Shown piece after piece: positions 4,119 through 37,226 of a DNA stretch of 41,161 nucleotides; within the stretch, counting starts at the first letter, position 1; every line of letters starts with the position of its first letter. The position numbers were made by a program, and so were the translations under genes. The DNA is from a virus. Under the pieces are notes generated by a model. It was not told the DNA's origin. It worked only from the letters and a program-made list of their open reading frames with translations, and searched no databases. Where the stretch lies: UHGV virus genome UHGV-0045963. The stretch is one strand, 5' to 3'.

Positions 4119-7100
4119 TTAACGTTCTTCCAGAGACTGAATCCGCTCTTTTATCTTATCCATTTCTCTGCGCTGCCATGCTGCCTCGATATAGAATAAG
4201 AGATCAGGTCTGACCCCCCATCTAGATCCTGCTGGCGTTATTTCAACGCGCTCAATGATGTCTTCCATTACCATCACTGGATTATCATCCTCATCAACAA
4301 TGATGCTCCCGTCATTATCAGTCAGCTGTATTTCCCTTTGGCCAGTAATGACGTCATCATATACTGCGGGATAATCGTCATAGCAAAGAAAGGCATAGCG
4401 GCATGTTGTGCTTTCTTCTTCCATGAGTCCGTGAGAAATAAGAACATCACGAAGTTGCTGCGCGATTACACCATGATGTATCCTCGCCCCTTCTTCTCCC
4501 TTTATAGCGACAGCGTTCAGCCATTTATAAGCGATATACCTGACGTCACCCCAGGCATCCAGCAATGCTTCGTCAGGAGAGACCGGCTCTGTCTTTAATG
4601 TTCCGTCACTGGTAACCACAGGATTGGAGCCAAGATAAACTGTCGAGAACCTGTTTCCCGGACCACCAAGAGCATTTACATTATCAAGATAAGGTTTAAC
4701 ATCTCCGTTCTCAAAAAGATGTTCGAGTGCGTTATATACCGCGCGACGTGGAGTACTGCTTCCGGAACCATGCAACGTTATCATTGCACCATCTGCTGAA
4801 GACGTTGTTTCACCGCCGCTAACGATTAATCTCTGAGCGGTAACATCATCAGACGGTACTTTCTTCGCAATAATGGCGTAATTGCCCTCCAGTTTGACTT
4901 CCGCGCGAACTTGTCCTGATGTACCTGCATGGACAGTCAGTGACTGGACGGCAACATCATCTGTGAAATCAACGGGTACAGGAACCGTCCTCACGCCGGA
5001 CGTCGACATAAAAGTAGGAAGCGTTCTGTTAGGAGTGGCTCCGTAGACAAAATCCCTTGAAACAAATTCTTCCTGTTTAATTTTCACCCTGAAACAATAC
5101 AAATCAGCCGGGTGACCATCGTGAACATAAGGATATTTTCTGTTGTTATCCCCTATGCTCCATGGGTTTAGAAAGTCTTCCCCACCGAAAATGTAGTACA
5201 GCCAGTTGTCTTTGATACAAACTGAACCAACACCAACCGCAGAGTTAACTATTCCGCCCTGATAAATCTGATCAGTAACATTAACCCACTCTACATTATC
5301 CAGACTCCACTCATTGACGTTAACTCTGGTCATAAATGTTCTTGGATAATTTCCTGCATAACGGTTATCAGGTTCTCCTCCTTCCCACTCACCAAATGCG
5401 CGCTCACTGCCAAAAATAATCAGCTCATCGCCAACTTTGGCAAAAGGAAGGTTTGAGTGATGAACATTATTTGGGAAGCGAAGAGAATTCCATGATGCAC
5501 CTAAATCAGAGCTTCTGTGCAATGAACTACCGGGTTGAGTACTTAATGTCCCCCTGGTCGTCAGATACAGAATGCCATCATAATATTTTACACATGGCTC
5601 AGATGCATTCGCCTCATATTCTGCAGGTATGCGTCTGCGAACAAAGCTACCAGGAGAACCGAAAGCATCAGAGAAATAGAGTATCCCAAGCTCGCGTGGA
5701 CCAATATCACCATTATGGTAGCCAACAGCAAAACTGTTATCGCTAATCGTCGCAAAACTGTGAATCTCAGTAACAGGAGTGCTTCCGTCAACAAAAGAAG
5801 AAATAGTTCCAAGACTGGTTTTTCTCCATGGTGACGAGTGAAATGATGTACCAAAACTCCAGTATCTACCCTCGTTATTCTGATCCACATCCTGAGTATT
5901 TTGCGTCGTAACTGTAAAAGTATTTTTATCAATAACAGTAGTCACCGTCATATTCCCGGTAACACCTGTAACACCAGAGTTTGAGAAGTTGACAAAATCA
6001 CCAGCAAATAATCCGTGATCAGTAATGCGAATATAAGCGACTTGCTGATTTGCTGCTTTCGTTATACCACCATAAACGCGAAGGCTGCGACTCATTGGAC
6101 GATCCCACAACTCTGCAACCTGCAGTTTATTTCCGCGCACGGTCCGCGTCTCAATTACAGCAAAAAGGCGATTTCTGACAACCCCCATACTCATGCAGTG
6201 ATAGTTAACTGTGGGATAGTTTTCATGTAAATCTGTAAGCCATTCCGGCGTTGTCCAGGTCTTCCCGTCATCTCCTGAGCGAACCCATGCAACATGGAGG
6301 TTATTTACACCATGGCGGTCTCCAGCCATAAAAGGCGCATAGATGACATTGTCATATACAAACGTTTTATCCTGCGTCCAGGCGTTGTACCACGGTGTAT
6401 CTGTAATTTTAAATAACTCTCCCTGGATAAAATCTTCAGAAGCATAAAAAAGAGGCTGACCCGGTATTCTCTCAAATAAAAAACGAGCATTTTTAAATCG
6501 GCTGACATCCGGAAGAGTTGATACTTTAAAAGTAAGCCCTAATCCGTCAATTTTATAACCTGGAGATGAGGCTTCAAGGCACGCGCTTATTGCAGTGGAA
6601 TCGTCATTTATACCATCACCAACAGCTCCAAAATCTTTGGGGCTAATAGCATCACGCATTTTATCCTGGAACGTTCGGTATACTGCCCCAGAACCATACT
6701 GAATAAACCAACCAAAACCACCAACAACCCCGGCGATTGCAGCATCGACATAATTACGCATTGAGCGATTATTTACAGCGTCCTGTTCAAGTGATGGATC
6801 TGCAAGGTTAGAAATTCTGTTTTGCTTTGCATCGTAATATTTTGCAAGCAAAGATGGTTTCATCAATGCACGTCTGAACCATCCAAAACATTGCTGGATC
6901 AGCATCGTCAGGTAGTCAAAGGCATCTTCATGCACTTCGGGGAAAAACTTTCCCTGATTGCGAAGGTCTGTCTCCTGCACTACATCAAGCACACGATCTA
7001 TCGTAATTCTCCATCCAGTAGCAAGCGGCGACGGAAGAACCACAGAACCGCCACTATAAGTGCCCGCCCCAGTTACCGTATAACCGGTATCCAGAACCAA

Positions 7101-7238
7101 TTCTGTTACGTTCCCGTTCAGGTCAGACACCTGAACAACCAGGTCGGATTTTCTGAAAATTCGAAAAGTATACGGAAACGATGTCGTAACGCCGTTACCG
7201 GTGTATTCGTTGTGGTCAACTTCGGTTGAGACCGTCAT
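4119..7238 (-). CDS. tailspike with sialidase-like (endo-N-acetylneuraminidase-like) central domain and C-terminal intramolecular chaperone (peptidase S74-like) domain
   Basis: 1039 aa; two Asp-box motifs (SGDDGKTW, SSDLGASW); C-terminal TSDGTLK ... GVIAQQL pattern of self-cleaving chaperone domains; phage fibre-type N-terminus (TGNGVTTSFPYTF). Confidence 0.85.
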   Translation of the reverse strand: MTVSTEVDHNEYTGNGVTTSFPYTFRIFRKSDLVVQVSDLNGNVTELVLDTGYTVTGAGTYSGGSVVLPSPLATGWRITIDRVLDVVQETDLRNQGKFFPEVHEDAFDYLTMLIQQCFGWFRRALMKPSLLAKYYDAKQNRISNLADPSLEQDAVNNRSMRNYVDAAIAGVVGGFGWFIQYGSGAVYRTFQDKMRDAISPKDFGAVGDGINDDSTAISACLEASSPGYKIDGLGLTFKVSTLPDVSRFKNARFLFERIPGQPLFYASEDFIQGELFKITDTPWYNAWTQDKTFVYDNVIYAPFMAGDRHGVNNLHVAWVRSGDDGKTWTTPEWLTDLHENYPTVNYHCMSMGVVRNRLFAVIETRTVRGNKLQVAELWDRPMSRSLRVYGGITKAANQQVAYIRITDHGLFAGDFVNFSNSGVTGVTGNMTVTTVIDKNTFTVTTQNTQDVDQNNEGRYWSFGTSFHSSPWRKTSLGTISSFVDGSTPVTEIHSFATISDNSFAVGYHNGDIGPRELGILYFSDAFGSPGSFVRRRIPAEYEANASEPCVKYYDGILYLTTRGTLSTQPGSSLHRSSDLGASWNSLRFPNNVHHSNLPFAKVGDELIIFGSERAFGEWEGGEPDNRYAGNYPRTFMTRVNVNEWSLDNVEWVNVTDQIYQGGIVNSAVGVGSVCIKDNWLYYIFGGEDFLNPWSIGDNNRKYPYVHDGHPADLYCFRVKIKQEEFVSRDFVYGATPNRTLPTFMSTSGVRTVPVPVDFTDDVAVQSLTVHAGTSGQVRAEVKLEGNYAIIAKKVPSDDVTAQRLIVSGGETTSSADGAMITLHGSGSSTPRRAVYNALEHLFENGDVKPYLDNVNALGGPGNRFSTVYLGSNPVVTSDGTLKTEPVSPDEALLDAWGDVRYIAYKWLNAVAIKGEEGARIHHGVIAQQLRDVLISHGLMEEESTTCRYAFLCYDDYPAVYDDVITGQREIQLTDNDGSIIVDEDDNPVMVMEDIIERVEITPAGSRWGVRPDLLFYIEAAWQRREMDKIKERIQSLEER

Positions 7239-7394: not shown

Positions 7395-7414
7395 TACTGT
7401 ATAAATATACAGTT
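7395..7414 (+). promoter_or_regulatory. LexA (SOS) box TACTGTATAAATATACAGTT
   Basis: CTGT-N8-ACAG with AT-rich centre, 18 of 20 matches to the consensus TACTGTATATATATACAGTA; ends 6 nt before the ATG at 7420. Confidence 0.7.
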
Positions 7415-7419
7415 ATTGC

Positions 7420-7692
7420 ATGGAGAATATTAAGATGCAGCAGTATCACTATCCACTGGAAGACGGATTTACCGAAAGGATTCACACGCCGGGAGGCGTC
7501 AGGTCACTGGTGGAGGGATCGCACTTGATGAAATTACTCCGGGATCTCGATAAGGATGGATTTAATGTCGATGGCCCACTTGCCGAACTGACTGCACTGA
7601 TTAACTACGTCACCAGCTCACAGATGTCTATGCAGGATCTGCAAACACATCTCGACTATTGTGCCGAACAATTACGAAAACAAACCCGGTAA
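7420..7692 (+). CDS. small antirepressor-like protein (standalone homologue of the Ant C-terminal domain); an alternative start is ATG 7435
   Basis: Residues RIHTPGGVRSLVEGSHLMKLLRDL...ELTALINYV...DLQTHLDYC align with the C-terminus of the 8843..9529 protein (LIHSPSGVLGLTENSLLMNLLNQL...ELTTMFCYI...DIQTHAEYI). Confidence 0.6.
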   Translation: MENIKMQQYHYPLEDGFTERIHTPGGVRSLVEGSHLMKLLRDLDKDGFNVDGPLAELTALINYVTSSQMSMQDLQTHLDYCAEQLRKQTR

Positions 7693-7698
7693 ATTTAA

Positions 7699-7716
7699 AG
7701 GCCGCAAGAGCGGCCT
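7699..7716. terminator. hairpin shared by the convergent genes 7420..7692 and 7715..8443
   Basis: AGGCCGC AAGA GCGGCCT stem-loop; overlaps the stop codon of the minus-strand gene. Confidence 0.45.
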
Positions 7717-8443
7717 ATCGTTTCGCTTTGTGCTCATCCCAGCACGTTTTGCACCATGCCATTAAGCCGTCCGCATTTTGATTATTAGGGTAAAAGCTGG
7801 TTCGTTTTCTGCGGACATTACAAATTGGGCACCACTTCATATGGCGTGTATTCTTTGGGCCATCGAGACACCTTGCACACCACTTAGTCAATCCATCTGG
7901 ATTTTTTGACGATTTCCTGAATTTTTCATATGGAAGGTTTATTCTGCATCGCAAGCACTGCTTGCTACCACTTGAAACTCTGTTAGCTGATTCTTCTTTT
8001 GGCGGCGATACAGAAGGTATTCTTGCTGGCTCTGATACTGCCTGAGGTGCTTTTTTAGATGACTGAGACGATATGTCATCACCAGGGAATCTTCCATGAT
8101 ATGCCGGACGCGTTGACACTCCAGGTGGAAGCTCAGCTGTAAACGGCTTTGGCTGAATCAGTTGCCTCTCTTTTGCTAACTCCTGCTGTTTATAATATGT
8201 CTGGATTACCGCACTATCATAAGCAGGAGGTGCGGAAATATTAGGCGCATTACCTCCAGTTTTTTGAAACTGAGTAGAGGTGTGTTCTATCACCTGTGTA
8301 CGATTAATCGTTATCTCCCCATCTTCGGTCTTTATCGTTTTGTTATGATTAACGACCGTACGATCAGAGATCTTAGTCTTGTTCTGGTTGATAACGTAAA
8401 TAATCACCGCAACCACACCAACAACTATCCAGAAAACTTCCAT
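7715..8443 (-). CDS. membrane-anchored protein with C-terminal tandem Cys4 zinc-ribbon-like repeats, unknown function
   Basis: N-terminal TM (VFWIVVGVVAVIIYVI), Ser/Pro/Gln-rich linker, two repeats C-x2-C ... WC-x-x-C (CLRCR...WCARC; CPICN...WCKTC); RBS GAGGAAAAGCA. Confidence 0.6.
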   Translation of the reverse strand: MEVFWIVVGVVAVIIYVINQNKTKISDRTVVNHNKTIKTEDGEITINRTQVIEHTSTQFQKTGGNAPNISAPPAYDSAVIQTYYKQQELAKERQLIQPKPFTAELPPGVSTRPAYHGRFPGDDISSQSSKKAPQAVSEPARIPSVSPPKEESANRVSSGSKQCLRCRINLPYEKFRKSSKNPDGLTKWCARCLDGPKNTRHMKWCPICNVRRKRTSFYPNNQNADGLMAWCKTCWDEHKAKR

Positions 8444-8462: not shown

Positions 8463-8479
8463 ATTACCTTAAAGGTAAT
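8463..8479. promoter_or_regulatory. operator-like palindrome ATTACCTTAAAGGTAAT
   Basis: Perfect 17-bp inverted repeat between divergent genes 7715..8443 and ant. Confidence 0.6.
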
Positions 8480-8555
8480 ATCTTGCTTTCAGGTGATCAA
8501 GCGTTAAACGCAATCAACCAAATACGGTTGATTTTTATATTTATCAGCGTTTATC

Positions 8556-8572
8556 ATTACCTTTGCGGTAAA
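8556..8572. promoter_or_regulatory. operator-like palindrome ATTACCTTTGCGGTAAA
   Basis: Second copy 93 bp from the first, upstream of the ant leader. Confidence 0.55.
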
Positions 8573-8662
8573 TTTACATCGCACTCCTCTTGTGCCATAG
8601 TAATCGAGCACTGGCAAAATCCAGTGCCGGGATTTGCACCCCGGATTACTAAAAGGCGCATA

Positions 8663-8684
8663 CCACGCCAGACGTGGTTTTTTT
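8663..8684 (+). terminator. intrinsic terminator inside the ant leader
   Basis: Stem CCACG / CGTGG with loop CCAGA followed by T7; about 160 nt upstream of the ant ATG. Confidence 0.55.
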
Positions 8685-8842
8685 ATGCGTATAGCACAGT
8701 CATGCCAGAATTATGGTGGGACGTGCAGGGGCACCGAAAGGTGCGCCGGGTCCTTTTAGCCGGTAGTGCAAACCCTGTACGTCTCACCACCAACGAGATT
8801 TGCACCTCAGGTGGTGATTAACCATACTAAAAGGTGATTGCC

Positions 8843-9529
8843 ATGACTGCTAACGTAACCCCATCTGTTTTTCATTTTGAATCAGAAGCAACCATTCGAG
8901 CCATTGTTATTGATGGAAATCCTTGGTTTGTTGCCAAAGACGTTATTAAAGCTCTTCAACTGACAAACCCCACCATGTCAATCAAATCTCTTGATGATGA
9001 TGAAAGGGCTAAATTTAACTTAGGTCGTCAAGGCGAAACCAATATTATCAGCGAGTCAGGCCTCTACACACTGATCCTCCGCTGCCGCGATGCGGTGACA
9101 CCAGGCACTATCCCCTACCGCTTTCGTAAATGGGTTACAGGTGAGGTTCTTCCTCAGATCCGCCGCACCGGAAGTTACATTAAAAACTCGCTCCCGCAGG
9201 AAGAACGCATAAAGATGGTTGCCGACCAGGTAGCCAACGCCACAGCATCAGCAGTGATGCAGGCGATGAAGATAGAGAACAAAACCTACAGTGCCCCACT
9301 GAAGCCCGGCTACCGCAGCCTGATTCACTCGCCGTCTGGTGTTCTCGGCCTGACGGAGAACTCACTGCTGATGAATCTGTTGAACCAGTTACAGGAAGAC
9401 GGGCACGACGTATCGGGCGCGGCGGCGGAGCTGACCACCATGTTCTGCTACATCGTCGGTGTGAGCAAATGCCTGCGTGATATCCAGACTCACGCGGAGT
9501 ACATCAACGACAAAGCAGGATTCTTCTGA
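8843..9529 (+). CDS. antirepressor (Bro-N/Ant-type N-terminal domain plus C-terminal domain shared with 7420..7692)
   Basis: N-terminal Bro-N-like sequence (FHFESEATIRAIVIDGNPWFVAKDV...); RBS AAGGTG 6 nt before ATG 8843; the track start at 8834 is GTG. Confidence 0.75.
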   Translation: MTANVTPSVFHFESEATIRAIVIDGNPWFVAKDVIKALQLTNPTMSIKSLDDDERAKFNLGRQGETNIISESGLYTLILRCRDAVTPGTIPYRFRKWVTGEVLPQIRRTGSYIKNSLPQEERIKMVADQVANATASAVMQAMKIENKTYSAPLKPGYRSLIHSPSGVLGLTENSLLMNLLNQLQEDGHDVSGAAAELTTMFCYIVGVSKCLRDIQTHAEYINDKAGFF

Positions 9530-9642: not shown

Positions 9643-9831
9643 ATGGAAATCAACATCATTACATTGCTGAAGGCCATTATTGGCGGAGCGGGCTTAGGCT
9701 TTGCCCTACCAGGCGGATTATCTTTCCTGCTTCCTGCTTTTACTGTTACAGCTGGGATAGCCTATGCATTTGCTGTGGCTGGTGCTGTTGCACTCCCTGC
9801 TATCTATGCCGCAAAGAAGTTAGCCAACTAA
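9643..9831 (+). CDS. small hydrophobic Gly/Ala-rich peptide with double-glycine-leader-like N-terminus
   Basis: 62 aa; MEINIITLLKAIIGG followed by a 47-aa Gly/Ala/Leu-rich hydrophobic region ending KKLAN; RBS GAGGGGG. Confidence 0.5.
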   Translation: MEINIITLLKAIIGGAGLGFALPGGLSFLLPAFTVTAGIAYAFAVAGAVALPAIYAAKKLAN

Positions 9832-9832
9832 A

Positions 9833-10165
9833 ATGCCTGATTTATCTTGGCTTGCGCCCAGAGATGCACAGCAATTGACAAGGTTTTATTTCATACTGTG
9901 CATTGCTTATCTTGCTGTTCATCTGATATGGGATGCCGTTTGCAAAGATACGCCTCCTTTTTCTTTGGATAAGTTGCAATACAAGATGAATGAGGTTTAT
10001 TCATCATCTACTTTTGCAACCAGCGCATTCTTCATTGTTATTCTGTTCGATATGAAGAATCCACTGAGAACTTCAGATGCTTTCATATTCCCATTAATTA
10101 TTGCTGCTCTAACTGGCTTTATGATCTCATTATCAGCAATAGTGCCAAAGAAAGTAAATAACTGA
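9833..10165 (+). CDS. polytopic small membrane protein (candidate immunity or partner protein of 9643..9831)
   Basis: 110 aa, three hydrophobic segments; start 1 nt after the preceding stop; followed by a terminator. Confidence 0.5.
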   Translation: MPDLSWLAPRDAQQLTRFYFILCIAYLAVHLIWDAVCKDTPPFSLDKLQYKMNEVYSSSTFATSAFFIVILFDMKNPLRTSDAFIFPLIIAALTGFMISLSAIVPKKVNN

Positions 10166-10262: not shown

Positions 10263-10424
10263 ATGAAAAAAGCATTTGCTGCACTGTTCGTTTTGTTGTC
10301 TCTGGTAGCTTCAACTCAGGCCTTTGCCGGTCGTTGTCAGCACGACAGCGACACTGCTGCTGACGGCTCCCGCTGCGGTGGGCGTTCTGCGGATTCCCGC
10401 CCGGGTGGCGGTGGCATTCGTTAA
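10263..10424 (+). CDS. small secreted Cys-containing peptide (about 53 aa)
   Basis: Signal peptide MKKAFAALFVLLSLVASTQAFA then a Gly/Ser/Asp-rich tail with two Cys; weak RBS; the track start at 10191 directly follows a terminator. Confidence 0.35.
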   Translation: MKKAFAALFVLLSLVASTQAFAGRCQHDSDTAADGSRCGGRSADSRPGGGGIR

Positions 10425-10455: not shown

Positions 10456-10836
10456 TCACGCAACGCAATTATTACCGCGCCATGTAACATTTTTAATAAT
10501 CTTATCAGCACCAAACTCAACGTAAACAGAGCAACTGAAATGGAGTGTATAACCGCCATCAGTTGTTGCGTATGTGTTTGAATATATAGTATTACCAATT
10601 AGATTAGACGTAGTATTATACGTTGTGGTTTGTGGTACGTTATAACTACCAGAGCTTGAGTAAACATACACTCTGTTTCCATCTGGAGATGTAAGCTCTC
10701 CCTGAGGATACCCCCACTGCTGAACCATTGCGTCTATACTCTGCCCGCGCCACGTAAGCATATTTCTTTCAAACTGTGCAGCTGACTGGCATCCAACGAG
10801 AAGCATAAATCCAAAAATCAAAAATACTTTTCTCAT
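10456..10836 (-). CDS. lipoprotein, candidate superinfection-exclusion or surface moron
   Basis: MRKVFLIFGFMLLVGC lipobox; Thr/Ser/Asn/Tyr-rich mature part; AT-rich context between virion genes and ant. Start could be 10851 or 10872. Confidence 0.6.
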   Translation of the reverse strand: MRKVFLIFGFMLLVGCQSAAQFERNMLTWRGQSIDAMVQQWGYPQGELTSPDGNRVYVYSSSGSYNVPQTTTYNTTSNLIGNTIYSNTYATTDGGYTLHFSCSVYVEFGADKIIKNVTWRGNNCVA

Positions 10837-36124: not shown

Positions 36125-36232
<108 letters not shown>

Positions 36233-36641: not shown

Positions 36642-37226
36642 ATGAAAAGTATCCAGGACGTCCGCAGGCAAAATCTCAACGACTTGATCGACCGTGAATT
36701 CAATGGTGTTCAGACGCGGATGGCAGAAAAACTTGGAACTCAGGCAAATCTGGTAAACCGCTGGGCTCTTGGCAAGAAGGTTATCGGCGACCAGGTTGCA
36801 CGAAAAATTGAAGCTGCCGCCAATAAACCCCGTAACTGGCTTGATATTGATCGTTCGCTTTCTCAGGAGGGTTTTCAGCCTGTCGGCCCGAGCGATATAG
36901 GTCAGCTGGCGGCTCACAACCTGGAACGCTGGATGAGCGAAAGCCGCGACCTTTCAACACAGGGAAAACTTCACCGCGCATCCGGCGTCGCCCAGGTGAC
37001 AATCAGCCGCCTGTTAAACAATGAGGTCAGCGTTTCCATTTCCACTCTGGAGAATGTTGCATCCGCATTCGGGCGTCACGGATATGAACTACTGATTCAC
37101 CCGCACGACCCTGCGACTATCAACTATGACCGCTCACGCTACGCATTGTTACCCGAAACCGAGAAAGCAAAGATCGAAAGTTACATTGAATTTGTCATCA
37201 ACCAGAACGAAAAAAGCAAACAATAA
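36642..37226 (+). CDS. CI-like repressor with two XRE-type HTH regions and no recognisable LexA-like autocleavage domain
   Basis: 194 aa; HTH-like segments near residues 25-45 and 115-135; no Ala-Gly/Cys-Gly plus Ser/Lys S24 motifs seen; no SD sequence before the ATG; followed by a terminator and OL-like operators. Confidence 0.65.
   Translation: MKSIQDVRRQNLNDLIDREFNGVQTRMAEKLGTQANLVNRWALGKKVIGDQVARKIEAAANKPRNWLDIDRSLSQEGFQPVGPSDIGQLAAHNLERWMSESRDLSTQGKLHRASGVAQVTISRLLNNEVSVSISTLENVASAFGRHGYELLIHPHDPATINYDRSRYALLPETEKAKIESYIEFVINQNEKSKQ

What the first reader, a model, noticed from the sequence alone, without database searches (positions are those of the whole stretch)
7715..8443. Membrane-anchored protein with tandem zinc-ribbon-like repeats
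The protein has a single N-terminal TM helix, a long Ser/Pro/Gln-rich linker and two C-terminal repeats of the form C-x2-C ... WC-x-x-C rich in Lys and Arg. I cannot place this architecture in a known phage family. It sits where P22-like phages carry superinfection-exclusion genes, is divergent from ant, and is convergent with the LexA-box gene. It could be a membrane-tethered regulator, an exclusion protein or an anti-sigma-like factor.
Basis: seen in the sequence. Interest (0 to 1): 0.55.

Follow-up and report, generated by a model that had tools for sequence, protein, structure and literature searches.

The report
Membrane-tethered zinc-finger prophage protein
A prophage gene encodes a small protein anchored in the inner membrane that holds two DNA-binding-type zinc fingers in the cytoplasm on a long flexible tether; the family is uncharacterised, and it nearly always sits beside phage immunity genes, so it is a credible candidate for a new way of blocking rival phages.

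Summary
ORF 7715-8443 (-) is a real 242-aa gene with an N-terminal transmembrane helix, a conserved juxtamembrane segment, a disordered Ser/Pro/Gln-rich linker of about 100 aa, and two Cys4 modules. All eight Cys are invariant in homologues down to about 25% identity.

The modules are treble-clef fingers, not classical zinc ribbons. They are related to the Stc1-like fingers found in arrays on viral HNH nucleases, helicases and primases. They carry no catalytic residues and a conserved net charge of +10 to +19. Charge distribution places the N-terminus outside and the fingers in the cytoplasm.

The host phage is epsilon15/phiV10-like, not P22-like. No characterised family matches; only phrog_6762 (function unknown) does.

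Context is the new evidence. In distant lineages the gene lies directly downstream of the CI repressor gene, which is the lambda rexAB position. In enterobacterial podovirus prophages it lies among antirepressor genes between the tailspike and ejection-protein genes, which is the P22 sieA position.

My best reading, at about 0.4 confidence, is a membrane-tethered nucleic-acid-binding protein used in conflict between phages. One result cuts against a role in the lysogen: in this window its promoter is overlapped by the phage's own operator.

The parts
7715..8443 (-). Coding sequence, 242 aa plus stop codon
   Evidence: PGAP WP_000451759.1 at the same coordinates; phrog_6762 matches full length at E 1e-150
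8384..8437 (-). N-terminal transmembrane anchor (residues 3-20), preceded only by Met-Glu
   Evidence: KD 2.33; AF2 helix 3-20 with pLDDT about 90. Across the family there are 0 K/R before the helix and a mean of 3.3 K/R in the 15 aa after it, which implies N-terminus out and C-terminus in
8270..8383 (-). Conserved juxtamembrane segment (residues 21-58, NQNKTK...TIKTEDGEITINRTQV), predicted as a beta-hairpin with low confidence
   Evidence: conserved in A1 and A3; AF2 strands 26-39 and 42-55 with pLDDT 43-53
7970..8269 (-). Disordered Ser/Pro/Gln-rich linker (residues 59-158); sequence and length vary between homologues (about 48-106 aa)
7850..7969 (-). Cys4 treble-clef finger 1 (residues 159-198; C163, C166, C189, C192)
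   Evidence: pLDDT above 90; Cys invariant; hits to the finger regions of 'endonuclease VII'/HNH phrogs
7718..7849 (-). Cys4 treble-clef finger 2 (residues 199-242; C205, C208, C231, C234)
8463..8479 (.). Perfect 17-bp palindrome ATTACCTTAAAGGTAAT, read as a phage operator; it ends 19 nt before the ATG and contains the putative -10
   Evidence: 15 such sites in the window against 1.5 expected. The same motif flanks the repressor gene. The position is kept in homologues while the half-site changes in Providencia phages
8472..8500 (-). Putative sigma-70 promoter: -35 TTGATC (8500-8495), 17-nt spacer, -10 TACCTT (8477-8472)
   Evidence: read from the sequence. TTGA-N17-TACCTT is conserved across otherwise divergent upstream regions. 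The consensus scanner did not call it; this is an inference
8556..8572 (.). Second operator copy in the divergent intergenic region; it overlaps the promoter-like sites of the isrK/C4/BRO-N operon
7699..7716 (.). GC-rich hairpin shared by the convergent genes (terminator-like); it overlaps the stop codon

Best explanation
**What it is.** It is an accessory ('moron') protein of a temperate phage. [quoted passage not shown]

**How it is built.**
- A short conserved juxtamembrane element may drive self-association.
- A disordered tether of about 100 residues holds two strongly basic, zinc-stabilised treble-clef fingers at the cytoplasmic face.
- These fingers are the non-catalytic Stc1-like modules that viruses use in arrays on HNH nucleases, helicases and primases. 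The most likely ligand is therefore nucleic acid.

**Proposed action.** The protein binds DNA, or a DNA-protein complex, that appears at the membrane, which is above all the genome of an infecting phage as it leaves the ejection channel. It holds that DNA there, or blocks its completion, and so excludes competitors.
- This uses the 'location defines non-self' logic of the membrane nuclease SNIPE, but without a nuclease.
- It occupies the genomic positions of lambda RexAB and P22 SieA.

**Shown versus inferred.**
- Shown: the gene, the family, the invariant Cys, the confident fold, homology to nuclease-associated fingers, absence of catalytic residues, the charge pattern, and synteny with cI and antirepressor genes.
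- Inferred: topology, zinc binding, DNA binding, timing of expression, and the exclusion function.
For: **Architecture and conservation.**

**Topology.** Across 31 diverse members there are no K/R before the helix and a mean of 3.3 within 15 aa after it. Position 2 is acidic in 26 of the 31.

**What the fingers resemble.**
- PHROG 'endonuclease VII', HNH and primase families match at E 2e-11 to 3e-3.
- Relatives with 2-10 modules are fused to HNH, SF1 or SF2 helicases, or an HTH, and they score above the Pfam Stc1 threshold.
- 40 BFVD hits at E<=1e-3 include many viral HNH, beta-beta-alpha-Me and Stc1 proteins.
- The finger domain carries net charge +10 to +19 in every member checked.

**Context, across 28 lineages at 80% identity.**
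- In 7-8 lineages the gene lies 15-63 nt downstream of a CI gene on the same strand. The CI proteins are HTH + Peptidase_S24.
- In L097 there is no terminator between cI and the gene, and a strong one follows immediately after it.
- In 2 more lineages cI is nearby.
- In 12 lineages an antirepressor-type gene lies within 3 kb.

**Positional precedents.**
- The window position, between ejection-protein genes and the tailspike gene, matches that of P22 sieA.
- SNIPE shows that an N-out, single-pass, cytoplasmic DNA-binding protein can act on DNA during injection (PMC13190303).

**Signs of an acquired accessory gene.**
- GC is 43.6% and GC3 39%, against 51% and 53% for core genes.
- The gene has its own promoter and terminator.
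- It is present in only 129 of 5426 complete E. coli genomes.
Against: - No experiment exists, and no homologue has a known function.
- In this window and in the other enterobacterial podovirus prophages, the promoter's -10 lies inside the phage operator that also flanks the repressor gene. The gene should therefore be off in a stable lysogen and on only after infection or induction. That fits exclusion during lytic growth, as with T4 Imm (my knowledge), but not classical lysogen-expressed exclusion. It is also the opposite of the expression implied by the cI-linked homologues.
- A non-specific DNA binder would also meet the host chromosome, and no basis for discrimination is visible.
- Treble-clef fingers are often protein-binding modules (RING, LIM), so the ligand could be a protein.
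- PADLOC has no match.
- Known exclusion proteins such as SieA have quite different architectures.
- The link to immunity modules may only reflect shared insertion hot spots.
Confidence: 0.4

Rival explanations
1. It modulates the lysis-lysogeny switch. It would bind and hold at the membrane a component of the immunity circuit (repressor, antirepressor, LexA or operator DNA), or act as a membrane-tethered DNA-binding regulator. That would tune induction or the establishment of lysogeny.
For: - About 22 of 28 lineages carry the gene within 3 kb of cI or an antirepressor-type gene, often directly adjacent.
- In the window it sits between an SOS-controlled stand-alone Ant C-domain gene and a C4/isrK-controlled BRO-N ant gene, and it shares their operator.
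- The one period when both context types would express it is early infection, when the lysis-lysogeny decision is made.
- Lambda RexA, at the same position, biases the switch.
Against: - The conserved parts of the protein are shared among phages with unrelated repressor types (S24-type CI, and the HTH-only repressor here) and with different operators. A specific partner in the circuit is therefore unlikely.
- There is no extracytoplasmic domain to receive a signal, since only 2 residues lie outside.
- The fingers are homologous to nuclease-associated modules, not to known regulators.
Confidence: 0.2
2. It is an early lytic function that attaches the phage's own replicating or newly entered DNA to the membrane. 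This would resemble phi29 p16.7 (N-terminal anchor, spacer, C-terminal DNA-binding domain; my knowledge).
For: The architecture has the same logic. In the window the promoter is operator-controlled, so expression would be early after infection or induction. The finger domain is basic.
Against: - The gene is sporadic and accessory. It is absent from most phiV10-like phages and found in 2.4% of E. coli genomes.
- It has foreign base composition.
- It lies outside the replication module.
- In other lineages it is co-transcribed with cI, so it would be expressed when the phage is not replicating.
Confidence: 0.13
3. It is a host-takeover or anti-defence factor. The fingers would bind a host or defence protein (for example a sigma factor, RNA polymerase, a nuclease or a division protein) and inactivate it by holding it at the membrane. 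This covers the first reader's anti-sigma-like idea.
For: - Early operator-controlled accessory genes of temperate phages are often anti-defence genes (my knowledge).
- There is a weak PHROG hit to a family annotated 'Lar-like restriction alleviation' (E 3e-9).
- One relative is fused to a DnaJ domain.
Against: - No Pfam hit to Lar_restr_allev or to zf-HC2 anti-sigma domains, even with the E-value limit at 10.
- The H-x3-C-x2-C string is not conserved.
- The domain order is the reverse of that in membrane anti-sigma factors.
- Co-transcription with cI in many lineages fits poorly with takeover of the host.
Confidence: 0.12
4. The topology is the other way round (N-in, C-out). The Cys-rich domain would then be a disulfide-bonded periplasmic module acting on the envelope or on incoming virions.
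For: Eight cysteines could form four disulfides. Many exclusion proteins act in the periplasm (my knowledge).
Against: - The positive-inside rule argues strongly against it in all 31 members examined.
- There is no basic n-region before the helix.
- The fingers are homologous to cytoplasmic zinc modules of nucleases and helicases.
Confidence: 0.04

Closest known systems
Stc1-like / HNH-associated Cys4 fingers (Pfam PF12898; finger regions of phage 'endonuclease VII', HNH, primase and helicase proteins)
   Same: They share the signature C-x2-C...F...DG...(W)C-x2-C, the treble-clef fold and the tandem arrangement. Homology is significant.
   Different: This protein has exactly two modules, no enzymatic domain, and a membrane anchor plus a disordered tether. 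It scores below the Pfam threshold (21 bits against 24.8).
SNIPE (membrane-bound GIY-YIG nuclease that cleaves phage DNA during injection; PMC13190303)
   Same: Both are N-out single-pass anchors with a cytoplasmic, positively charged DNA-binding region. Both are found on mobile elements.
   Different: This protein has no DUF4041 and no nuclease domain, and there is no sequence similarity. If it acts on entering DNA, it must do so by binding rather than cutting.
Lambda RexA/RexB
   Same: The genomic position is the same, directly downstream of cI on the same strand, in at least 7 lineages. The Rex pair combines a DNA-binding part and a membrane part.
   Different: This is one polypeptide rather than two. 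It has one transmembrane helix rather than a multi-pass channel protein, it has zinc fingers, and there is no homology.
P22 SieA
   Same: It is an inner-membrane protein encoded between the ejection-protein genes and the tailspike gene, next to the ant region.
   Different: SieA has three transmembrane segments and no zinc fingers. It is expressed from the prophage and is found only in P22-like phages. There is no similarity: the only 'Sie-like' PHROG hit has E 0.88.
phi29 p16.7 (my knowledge)
   Same: It has an N-terminal membrane anchor, a spacer and a C-terminal non-specific DNA-binding domain, and it is an early gene.
   Different: It has a different fold (helical dimer), a coiled-coil spacer, and is a conserved replication accessory in a lytic phage of Gram-positive bacteria. 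There is no homology.

Membership tests
phrog_6762 (PHROGs, unknown function) | Full-length profile match | tested here: met
   E 1.1e-150; residues 1-242 match profile positions 1-242
Stc1 domain (Pfam PF12898) | Score at or above the Pfam gathering cut-off (24.8 bits) | tested here: not met
   21 bits, E 5e-4. Soluble multi-module relatives pass, with P0060 at 33.9 and P0086 at 41 bits. The relation is therefore real, but formal membership is not met for this protein
Stc1 domain (Pfam PF12898) | Tandem Cys4 fingers with a treble-clef (LIM-like) fold | tested here: met
   AF2 pLDDT 89-94, with a knuckle plus a helix N-terminus in each module. BFVD hits include proteins annotated 'Stc1 domain'
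HNH / beta-beta-alpha-Me nucleases (including endonuclease VII, PacI, Hpy99I) | Catalytic His (general base) and a metal-binding Asn/His in the beta-beta-alpha core | tested here: not met
   No conserved His or Asn in either module across A3. Beyond the Cys, only Gly and Trp are invariant, with Lys, Phe, Asp, Arg and Leu near-invariant. No Pfam HNH hit. The structural match is to the Cys4 zinc sites only
P22 SieA-type exclusion proteins | Three-transmembrane inner-membrane protein homologous to SieA | tested here: not met
   One transmembrane helix. SieA is described in PMC10883804. No sequence hit
P22 SieA-type exclusion proteins | Blocks DNA injection by related phages | not testable with these tools
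   Needs plating, K+ efflux and DNA-entry assays
Zinc-binding anti-sigma factors (ZAS) | Conserved H-x3-C-x2-C within an N-terminal helical anti-sigma domain, followed by a transmembrane segment | tested here: not met
   H201-x3-C205-x2-C208 exists in this protein, but the His is not conserved in A3. The fold is a treble clef, the anchor is N-terminal, and there is no zf-HC2 hit
SNIPE | DUF4041 plus a GIY-YIG nuclease domain | tested here: not met
   No such Pfam or PADLOC hits
Lar-type restriction alleviation proteins | Match to Pfam Lar_restr_allev | tested here: not met
   Only a finger-level hit to phrog_5558. No Pfam hit with the E-value limit at 10
Zinc-binding protein (general) | Bound Zn2+ in each Cys4 site | not testable with these tools
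   Inferred from invariant Cys geometry and homology; needs metal analysis

The most novel reading that the evidence does not exclude
This would be a one-protein, nuclease-free exclusion or immunity device. Zinc fingers tethered at the inner face of the membrane would recognise DNA simply because it arrives through the membrane, and would trap it. The family would have been moved repeatedly between the cI operon and the antirepressor region of unrelated temperate phages across Gammaproteobacteria. A variant reading is that the same tether links the lysis-lysogeny switch to events at the membrane.
Probability: 0.25. Interest if true: 0.75.

Novelty: new variant of a known kind. Interest (0 to 1): 0.55.

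Why it matters
- If the protein excludes phages by binding entering DNA at the membrane, it would be a second, simpler example of the 'location defines non-self' principle just described for SNIPE, and it would work without cutting.
- It would give a function to a family found in prophages of Escherichia, Salmonella, Citrobacter, Enterobacter, Serratia, Providencia, Yersinia, Edwardsiella, Pectobacterium, Aeromonas, Shewanella and Acinetobacter.
- It would also show what the very common viral Stc1-like finger does when freed from a nuclease.
- Practically, about 2% of complete E. coli genomes carry it, including K1 and APEC strains with this endosialidase-bearing prophage. It could therefore affect the outcome of phage therapy or phage typing.
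- Whatever the function turns out to be, the synteny rule (next to cI or next to antirepressor genes) is a usable guide for finding more such genes.

Tried and rejected
- **Full-length model against PDB (Foldseek).** Nothing meaningful, because the long disordered linker spoils the comparison. I re-predicted the C-terminal 87 aa alone and used that model.
- **afdb50 fold library.** Not available.
- **PDB by sequence.** Nothing significant with either the single domain or the family profile; PacI scored E 1.7.
- **PADLOC and NCBIfam.** No match.
- **PLSDB plasmids.** No match.
- **Species-representative genomes.** Only 4 loci.
- **Literature.** Nothing on the accession, the PHROG family, or 'Stc1 domain' together with phage. 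A search for zinc plus transmembrane plus superinfection exclusion found nothing relevant.
- **Degenerate HNH nuclease.** Rejected because there are no conserved catalytic residues.
- **LexA control of the gene itself.** Rejected. The canonical LexA box (7397-7412) belongs to the convergent neighbour. The CTG-N9-CAG palindromes upstream of the Serratia-type homologues are one base short of LexA spacing.
- **A fixed partner gene.** Rejected because the downstream neighbours differ between lineages.
- **Promoter scanner.** It does not call the promoter I propose. That promoter rests on conservation across loci.

Full report
**The observation**

The ORF at 7715-8443 on the minus strand is real. 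It starts with ATG, has the Shine-Dalgarno sequence GAGGAA upstream, and encodes 242 aa. NCBI's pipeline annotates the same coordinates in identical E. coli prophages as a hypothetical protein.

- Residues 3-19 are the only hydrophobic stretch.
- Residues 59-158 contain 35 Ser/Pro/Gln out of 100.
- The tail carries C163-x2-C166...W-C189-x2-C192 and C205-x2-C208...W-C231-x2-C234, with 20 Lys/Arg in 84 residues.
- AlphaFold2 with a 28-sequence alignment gives four regions: a confident helix at 3-20; a low-confidence beta-hairpin at 26-55; disorder up to residue 158 apart from one low-confidence helix (77-94); and two confident modules with pLDDT above 90.

**More than chance**

- 33 close homologues were found across Enterobacterales.
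- A profile search of 1.84 billion representatives gave 1663 hits. Roughly 50 of them have the same full architecture.
- All eight Cys and both Trp are invariant in the close set and in 31 sequences of about 30% mean identity.
- The linker varies freely in sequence and in length.

**What the modules are**

Each module has a CxxC knuckle in a beta-hairpin and a second CxxC at the start of a helix. That is a treble-clef finger, not a classical zinc ribbon.

- Both modules hit the finger regions of PHROG families annotated endonuclease VII, HNH endonuclease and primase, at E 2e-11 to 3e-3.
- In the large profile search the same module occurs 2-10 times in soluble proteins. Those I scanned also carry HNH nuclease, SF1 or SF2 helicase or DnaJ domains, and some score above the Pfam threshold for the Stc1 domain. 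Several unscanned ones end in a sigma-like HTH by eye. The window protein itself reaches only 21 bits against a cut-off of 24.8.
- Foldseek against viral models gives 40 hits at E<=1e-3, many of them viral HNH, beta-beta-alpha-Me, endonuclease VII and 'Stc1 domain' proteins.
- No His or Asn is conserved, so the modules are not nucleases.
- The net charge of the finger domain is +10 to +19 in every member examined.

The reasonable inference is a nucleic-acid-binding module, though protein binding cannot be excluded.

**Topology**

In all 31 diverse members there is no Lys or Arg before the helix. Position 2 is Glu or Asp in 26 of the 31, and on average 3.3 Lys/Arg follow within 15 residues. By the positive-inside rule the two N-terminal residues face the periplasm and everything else is cytoplasmic. 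This also fits a zinc site made of free cysteines. It is an inference, not a measurement.

**The phage and the neighbourhood**

The window holds host genes yfgG-yfgI followed by a prophage with a phiV10/epsilon15-like backbone (Uetakevirus type) and an endosialidase tailspike. It is not P22-like. The gene lies in the variable stretch between the tailspike gene (4119-7238) and the ejection or internal virion protein genes (from 11056).

- **Downstream, convergent.** An 85-aa gene (7435-7692) follows a near-consensus LexA box at 7397-7412. Its product is 40% identical to the C-terminal 78 residues of the neighbouring BRO-N antirepressor. It is therefore most likely an SOS-controlled antirepressor.
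- **Upstream, divergent.** The BRO-N ant gene (8843-9529) is preceded by Rfam matches to isrK and to the C4 antisense RNA. This is a P1-type immI arrangement.
- **Composition.** The gene has lower GC than the core genes (43.6% against about 51%; GC3 39% against 53%). It has its own terminator.
- **Distribution.** It occurs in 129 of 5426 complete E. coli genomes and in only six phage records.

**Regulation in this window**

A 17-bp palindrome, ATTACC-N5-GGTAAT, occurs 15 times at two or fewer mismatches, against 1.5 expected.

- Copies lie between the HTH repressor gene (36642-37226) and the divergent cro-like gene.
- Copies overlap a strong leftward-early-type promoter just after the repressor gene.
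- Copies lie in front of the LexA-box gene (7342), the C4/ant operon (8556) and this gene (8463-8479, a perfect copy ending 19 nt before the ATG).

I read the promoter of this gene as TTGATC-N17-TACCTT, with the -10 inside the operator. The consensus scanner does not call it.

Upstream regions of homologues from IMG/VR loci support this reading. TTGA-N17-TACCTT and the palindrome are the only conserved blocks in otherwise divergent sequence. In Providencia phages the half-site changes to TTAACC/GGTTAA at the same position and recurs elsewhere in the accessory region.

The gene is therefore most likely repressed by the phage's own repressor in a stable lysogen, and expressed after infection or induction. 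This is an inference from sequence.

**Context elsewhere**

I collected loci with the close and the distant alignments and clustered the gene into 28 lineages at 80% identity.

- In 7-8 lineages it lies 15-63 nt downstream of a CI-type repressor gene on the same strand, with a divergent cro-like gene on the other side of cI.
  - Examples are Aeromonas phage phiARM81mr, Acinetobacter sp. HY1485 and several viral contigs.
  - Six of the eight repressors scanned have HTH plus Peptidase_S24 or Peptidase_S24 alone; the L104 repressor has both.
  - In L097 there is no terminator between cI and the gene, and a strong hairpin follows it directly.
  - This is the position of rexAB in lambda, and it implies expression together with the repressor.
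- In two more lineages cI is nearby.
- In 12 lineages, including the window, an antirepressor-type gene (BRO-N, Rha, or the small Ant C-domain gene) lies within 3 kb.
- No second gene accompanies it consistently, so it appears to act alone.

**Interpretation**

The solid part is this: a phage accessory protein anchored in the inner membrane, presenting a basic pair of zinc fingers of a nuclease-associated, DNA-binding type on a long flexible tether at the cytoplasmic face.

For the function I rely on association. Exclusion genes are typically attached to immunity modules.

- Lambda cI-rexA-rexB is one example.
- P22 sieA lies beside mnt-arc-ant, between gene 16 and gene 9.
- From my own knowledge, P1 sim lies beside c4-ant, and lactococcal sie genes lie beside the repressor.

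Exclusion proteins are also usually membrane proteins. The recently described SNIPE shows that an N-out, single-pass protein with a cytoplasmic DNA-binding surface can act on phage DNA as it enters.

I therefore favour action on incoming DNA at the membrane by capture rather than cleavage, at about 0.4 confidence.

The main difficulty is the operator-controlled promoter in the enterobacterial versions. It predicts expression only during infection or induction, whereas the cI-linked versions predict expression in lysogens. Exclusion during lytic growth would reconcile the two. So would a role at the decision stage, which is why a switch-modulating role is the first rival (0.2). The other rivals are:

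- a p16.7-like tether for the phage's own DNA (0.13);
- a factor that sequesters a protein, for host takeover or anti-defence, which includes the anti-sigma idea (0.12);
- inverted topology (0.04).

**Comparison with known families**

- The protein belongs to phrog_6762, function unknown.
- Its fingers are related to Stc1-like, HNH-associated fingers, but it fails the Pfam threshold and lacks any enzyme domain.
- It is not a member of the SieA, Rex, SNIPE, ZAS anti-sigma or Lar families. The defining features were tested and not met.
- It resembles SNIPE and phi29 p16.7 in architecture, and RexAB and SieA in position.

**Verdict**

The finding is real and was correctly described, and the family is uncharacterised. 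I rate it as a new variant of a known kind: a phage immunity-region membrane protein with an architecture not described before. Interest is moderate to fairly high (0.55) because the hypothesis is now sharply testable with simple experiments.

Noticed in passing
window 7395-7414 and 7435-7692 (+): A near-consensus LexA box (TACTGTATAAATATACAGTT) precedes an 85-aa gene. Its product is 40% identical to the C-terminal 78 aa of the neighbouring BRO-N antirepressor (E 9e-16). The phage repressor (36642-37226) has HTH domains but no S24 peptidase domain. Induction therefore probably runs through an SOS-controlled stand-alone antirepressor domain, as in Gifsy and 186-type phages.
   Followed up: partly
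window 8608-8684 and 8709-8794 (+): There are Rfam matches above gathering score to isrK (67 bits) and to the C4 antisense RNA (78 bits), directly upstream of the BRO-N ant gene 8843-9529. This is a P1/P7-type immI control region inside an epsilon15/phiV10-like podovirus prophage.
   Followed up: partly
window 7342, 8463, 8556, 9601, 27124, 30269, 30287, 34089, 34151, 36090, 36571, 37282, 37344 (17-bp sites): The palindrome ATTACC-N5-GGTAAT occurs 15 times at two or fewer mismatches, against 1.5 expected. Sites lie at the repressor/cro region, at an early promoter, and in front of several accessory genes. It looks like a repressor regulon scattered over the genome, as in P1.
   Followed up: partly
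window 36128-36232: A run of homopolymers and Ns (C, G, N, A, C, G) makes the window 96 nt longer than the otherwise identical chromosome NZ_CP070045.1. It looks like a masking or assembly artefact, not biology.
   Followed up: no
window 4119-7238 (-): A 1039-aa tailspike with an endosialidase beta-propeller (specific for the K1 capsule) sits on a phiV10-like backbone. Related phages carry other tail fibres and an O-acetyltransferase here.
   Followed up: no
window 9643-9831, 9833-10165, 10263-10424 (+), 10456-10836 (-): Four more small accessory genes lie in the same variable stretch. Three encode small hydrophobic proteins and one a probable lipoprotein (lipobox LLVGC). All are PHROG families without an assigned function; one is only labelled 'membrane associated protein'. 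They are further candidates for envelope-level exclusion.
   Followed up: no
L128 6654-7307 and L135 6654-7307 (+): In two viral contigs the homologue downstream of cI is followed, with a 34-nt overlap, by a gene for a probably secreted (N-terminal hydrophobic leader) SNase plus Excalibur nuclease. This would pair a membrane DNA binder with an extracytoplasmic nuclease.
   Followed up: partly
L065-L071, about 60-75 nt upstream of the homologue's ATG: A second palindrome, TGTGACATGTCACA, lies just upstream of the -35 in the Citrobacter/Enterobacter-type versions and is absent from the window. Serratia-type versions instead carry CTG-N9-CAG palindromes, one base short of LexA-box spacing.
   Followed up: no
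L006 / L092 (Buttiauxella gaviniae): One homologue lies not in a tailed prophage but in a small integrated element. That element carries an S24 repressor, two serine recombinases and a YagK/YfjJ-type protein, so the gene moves between kinds of mobile element.
   Followed up: no
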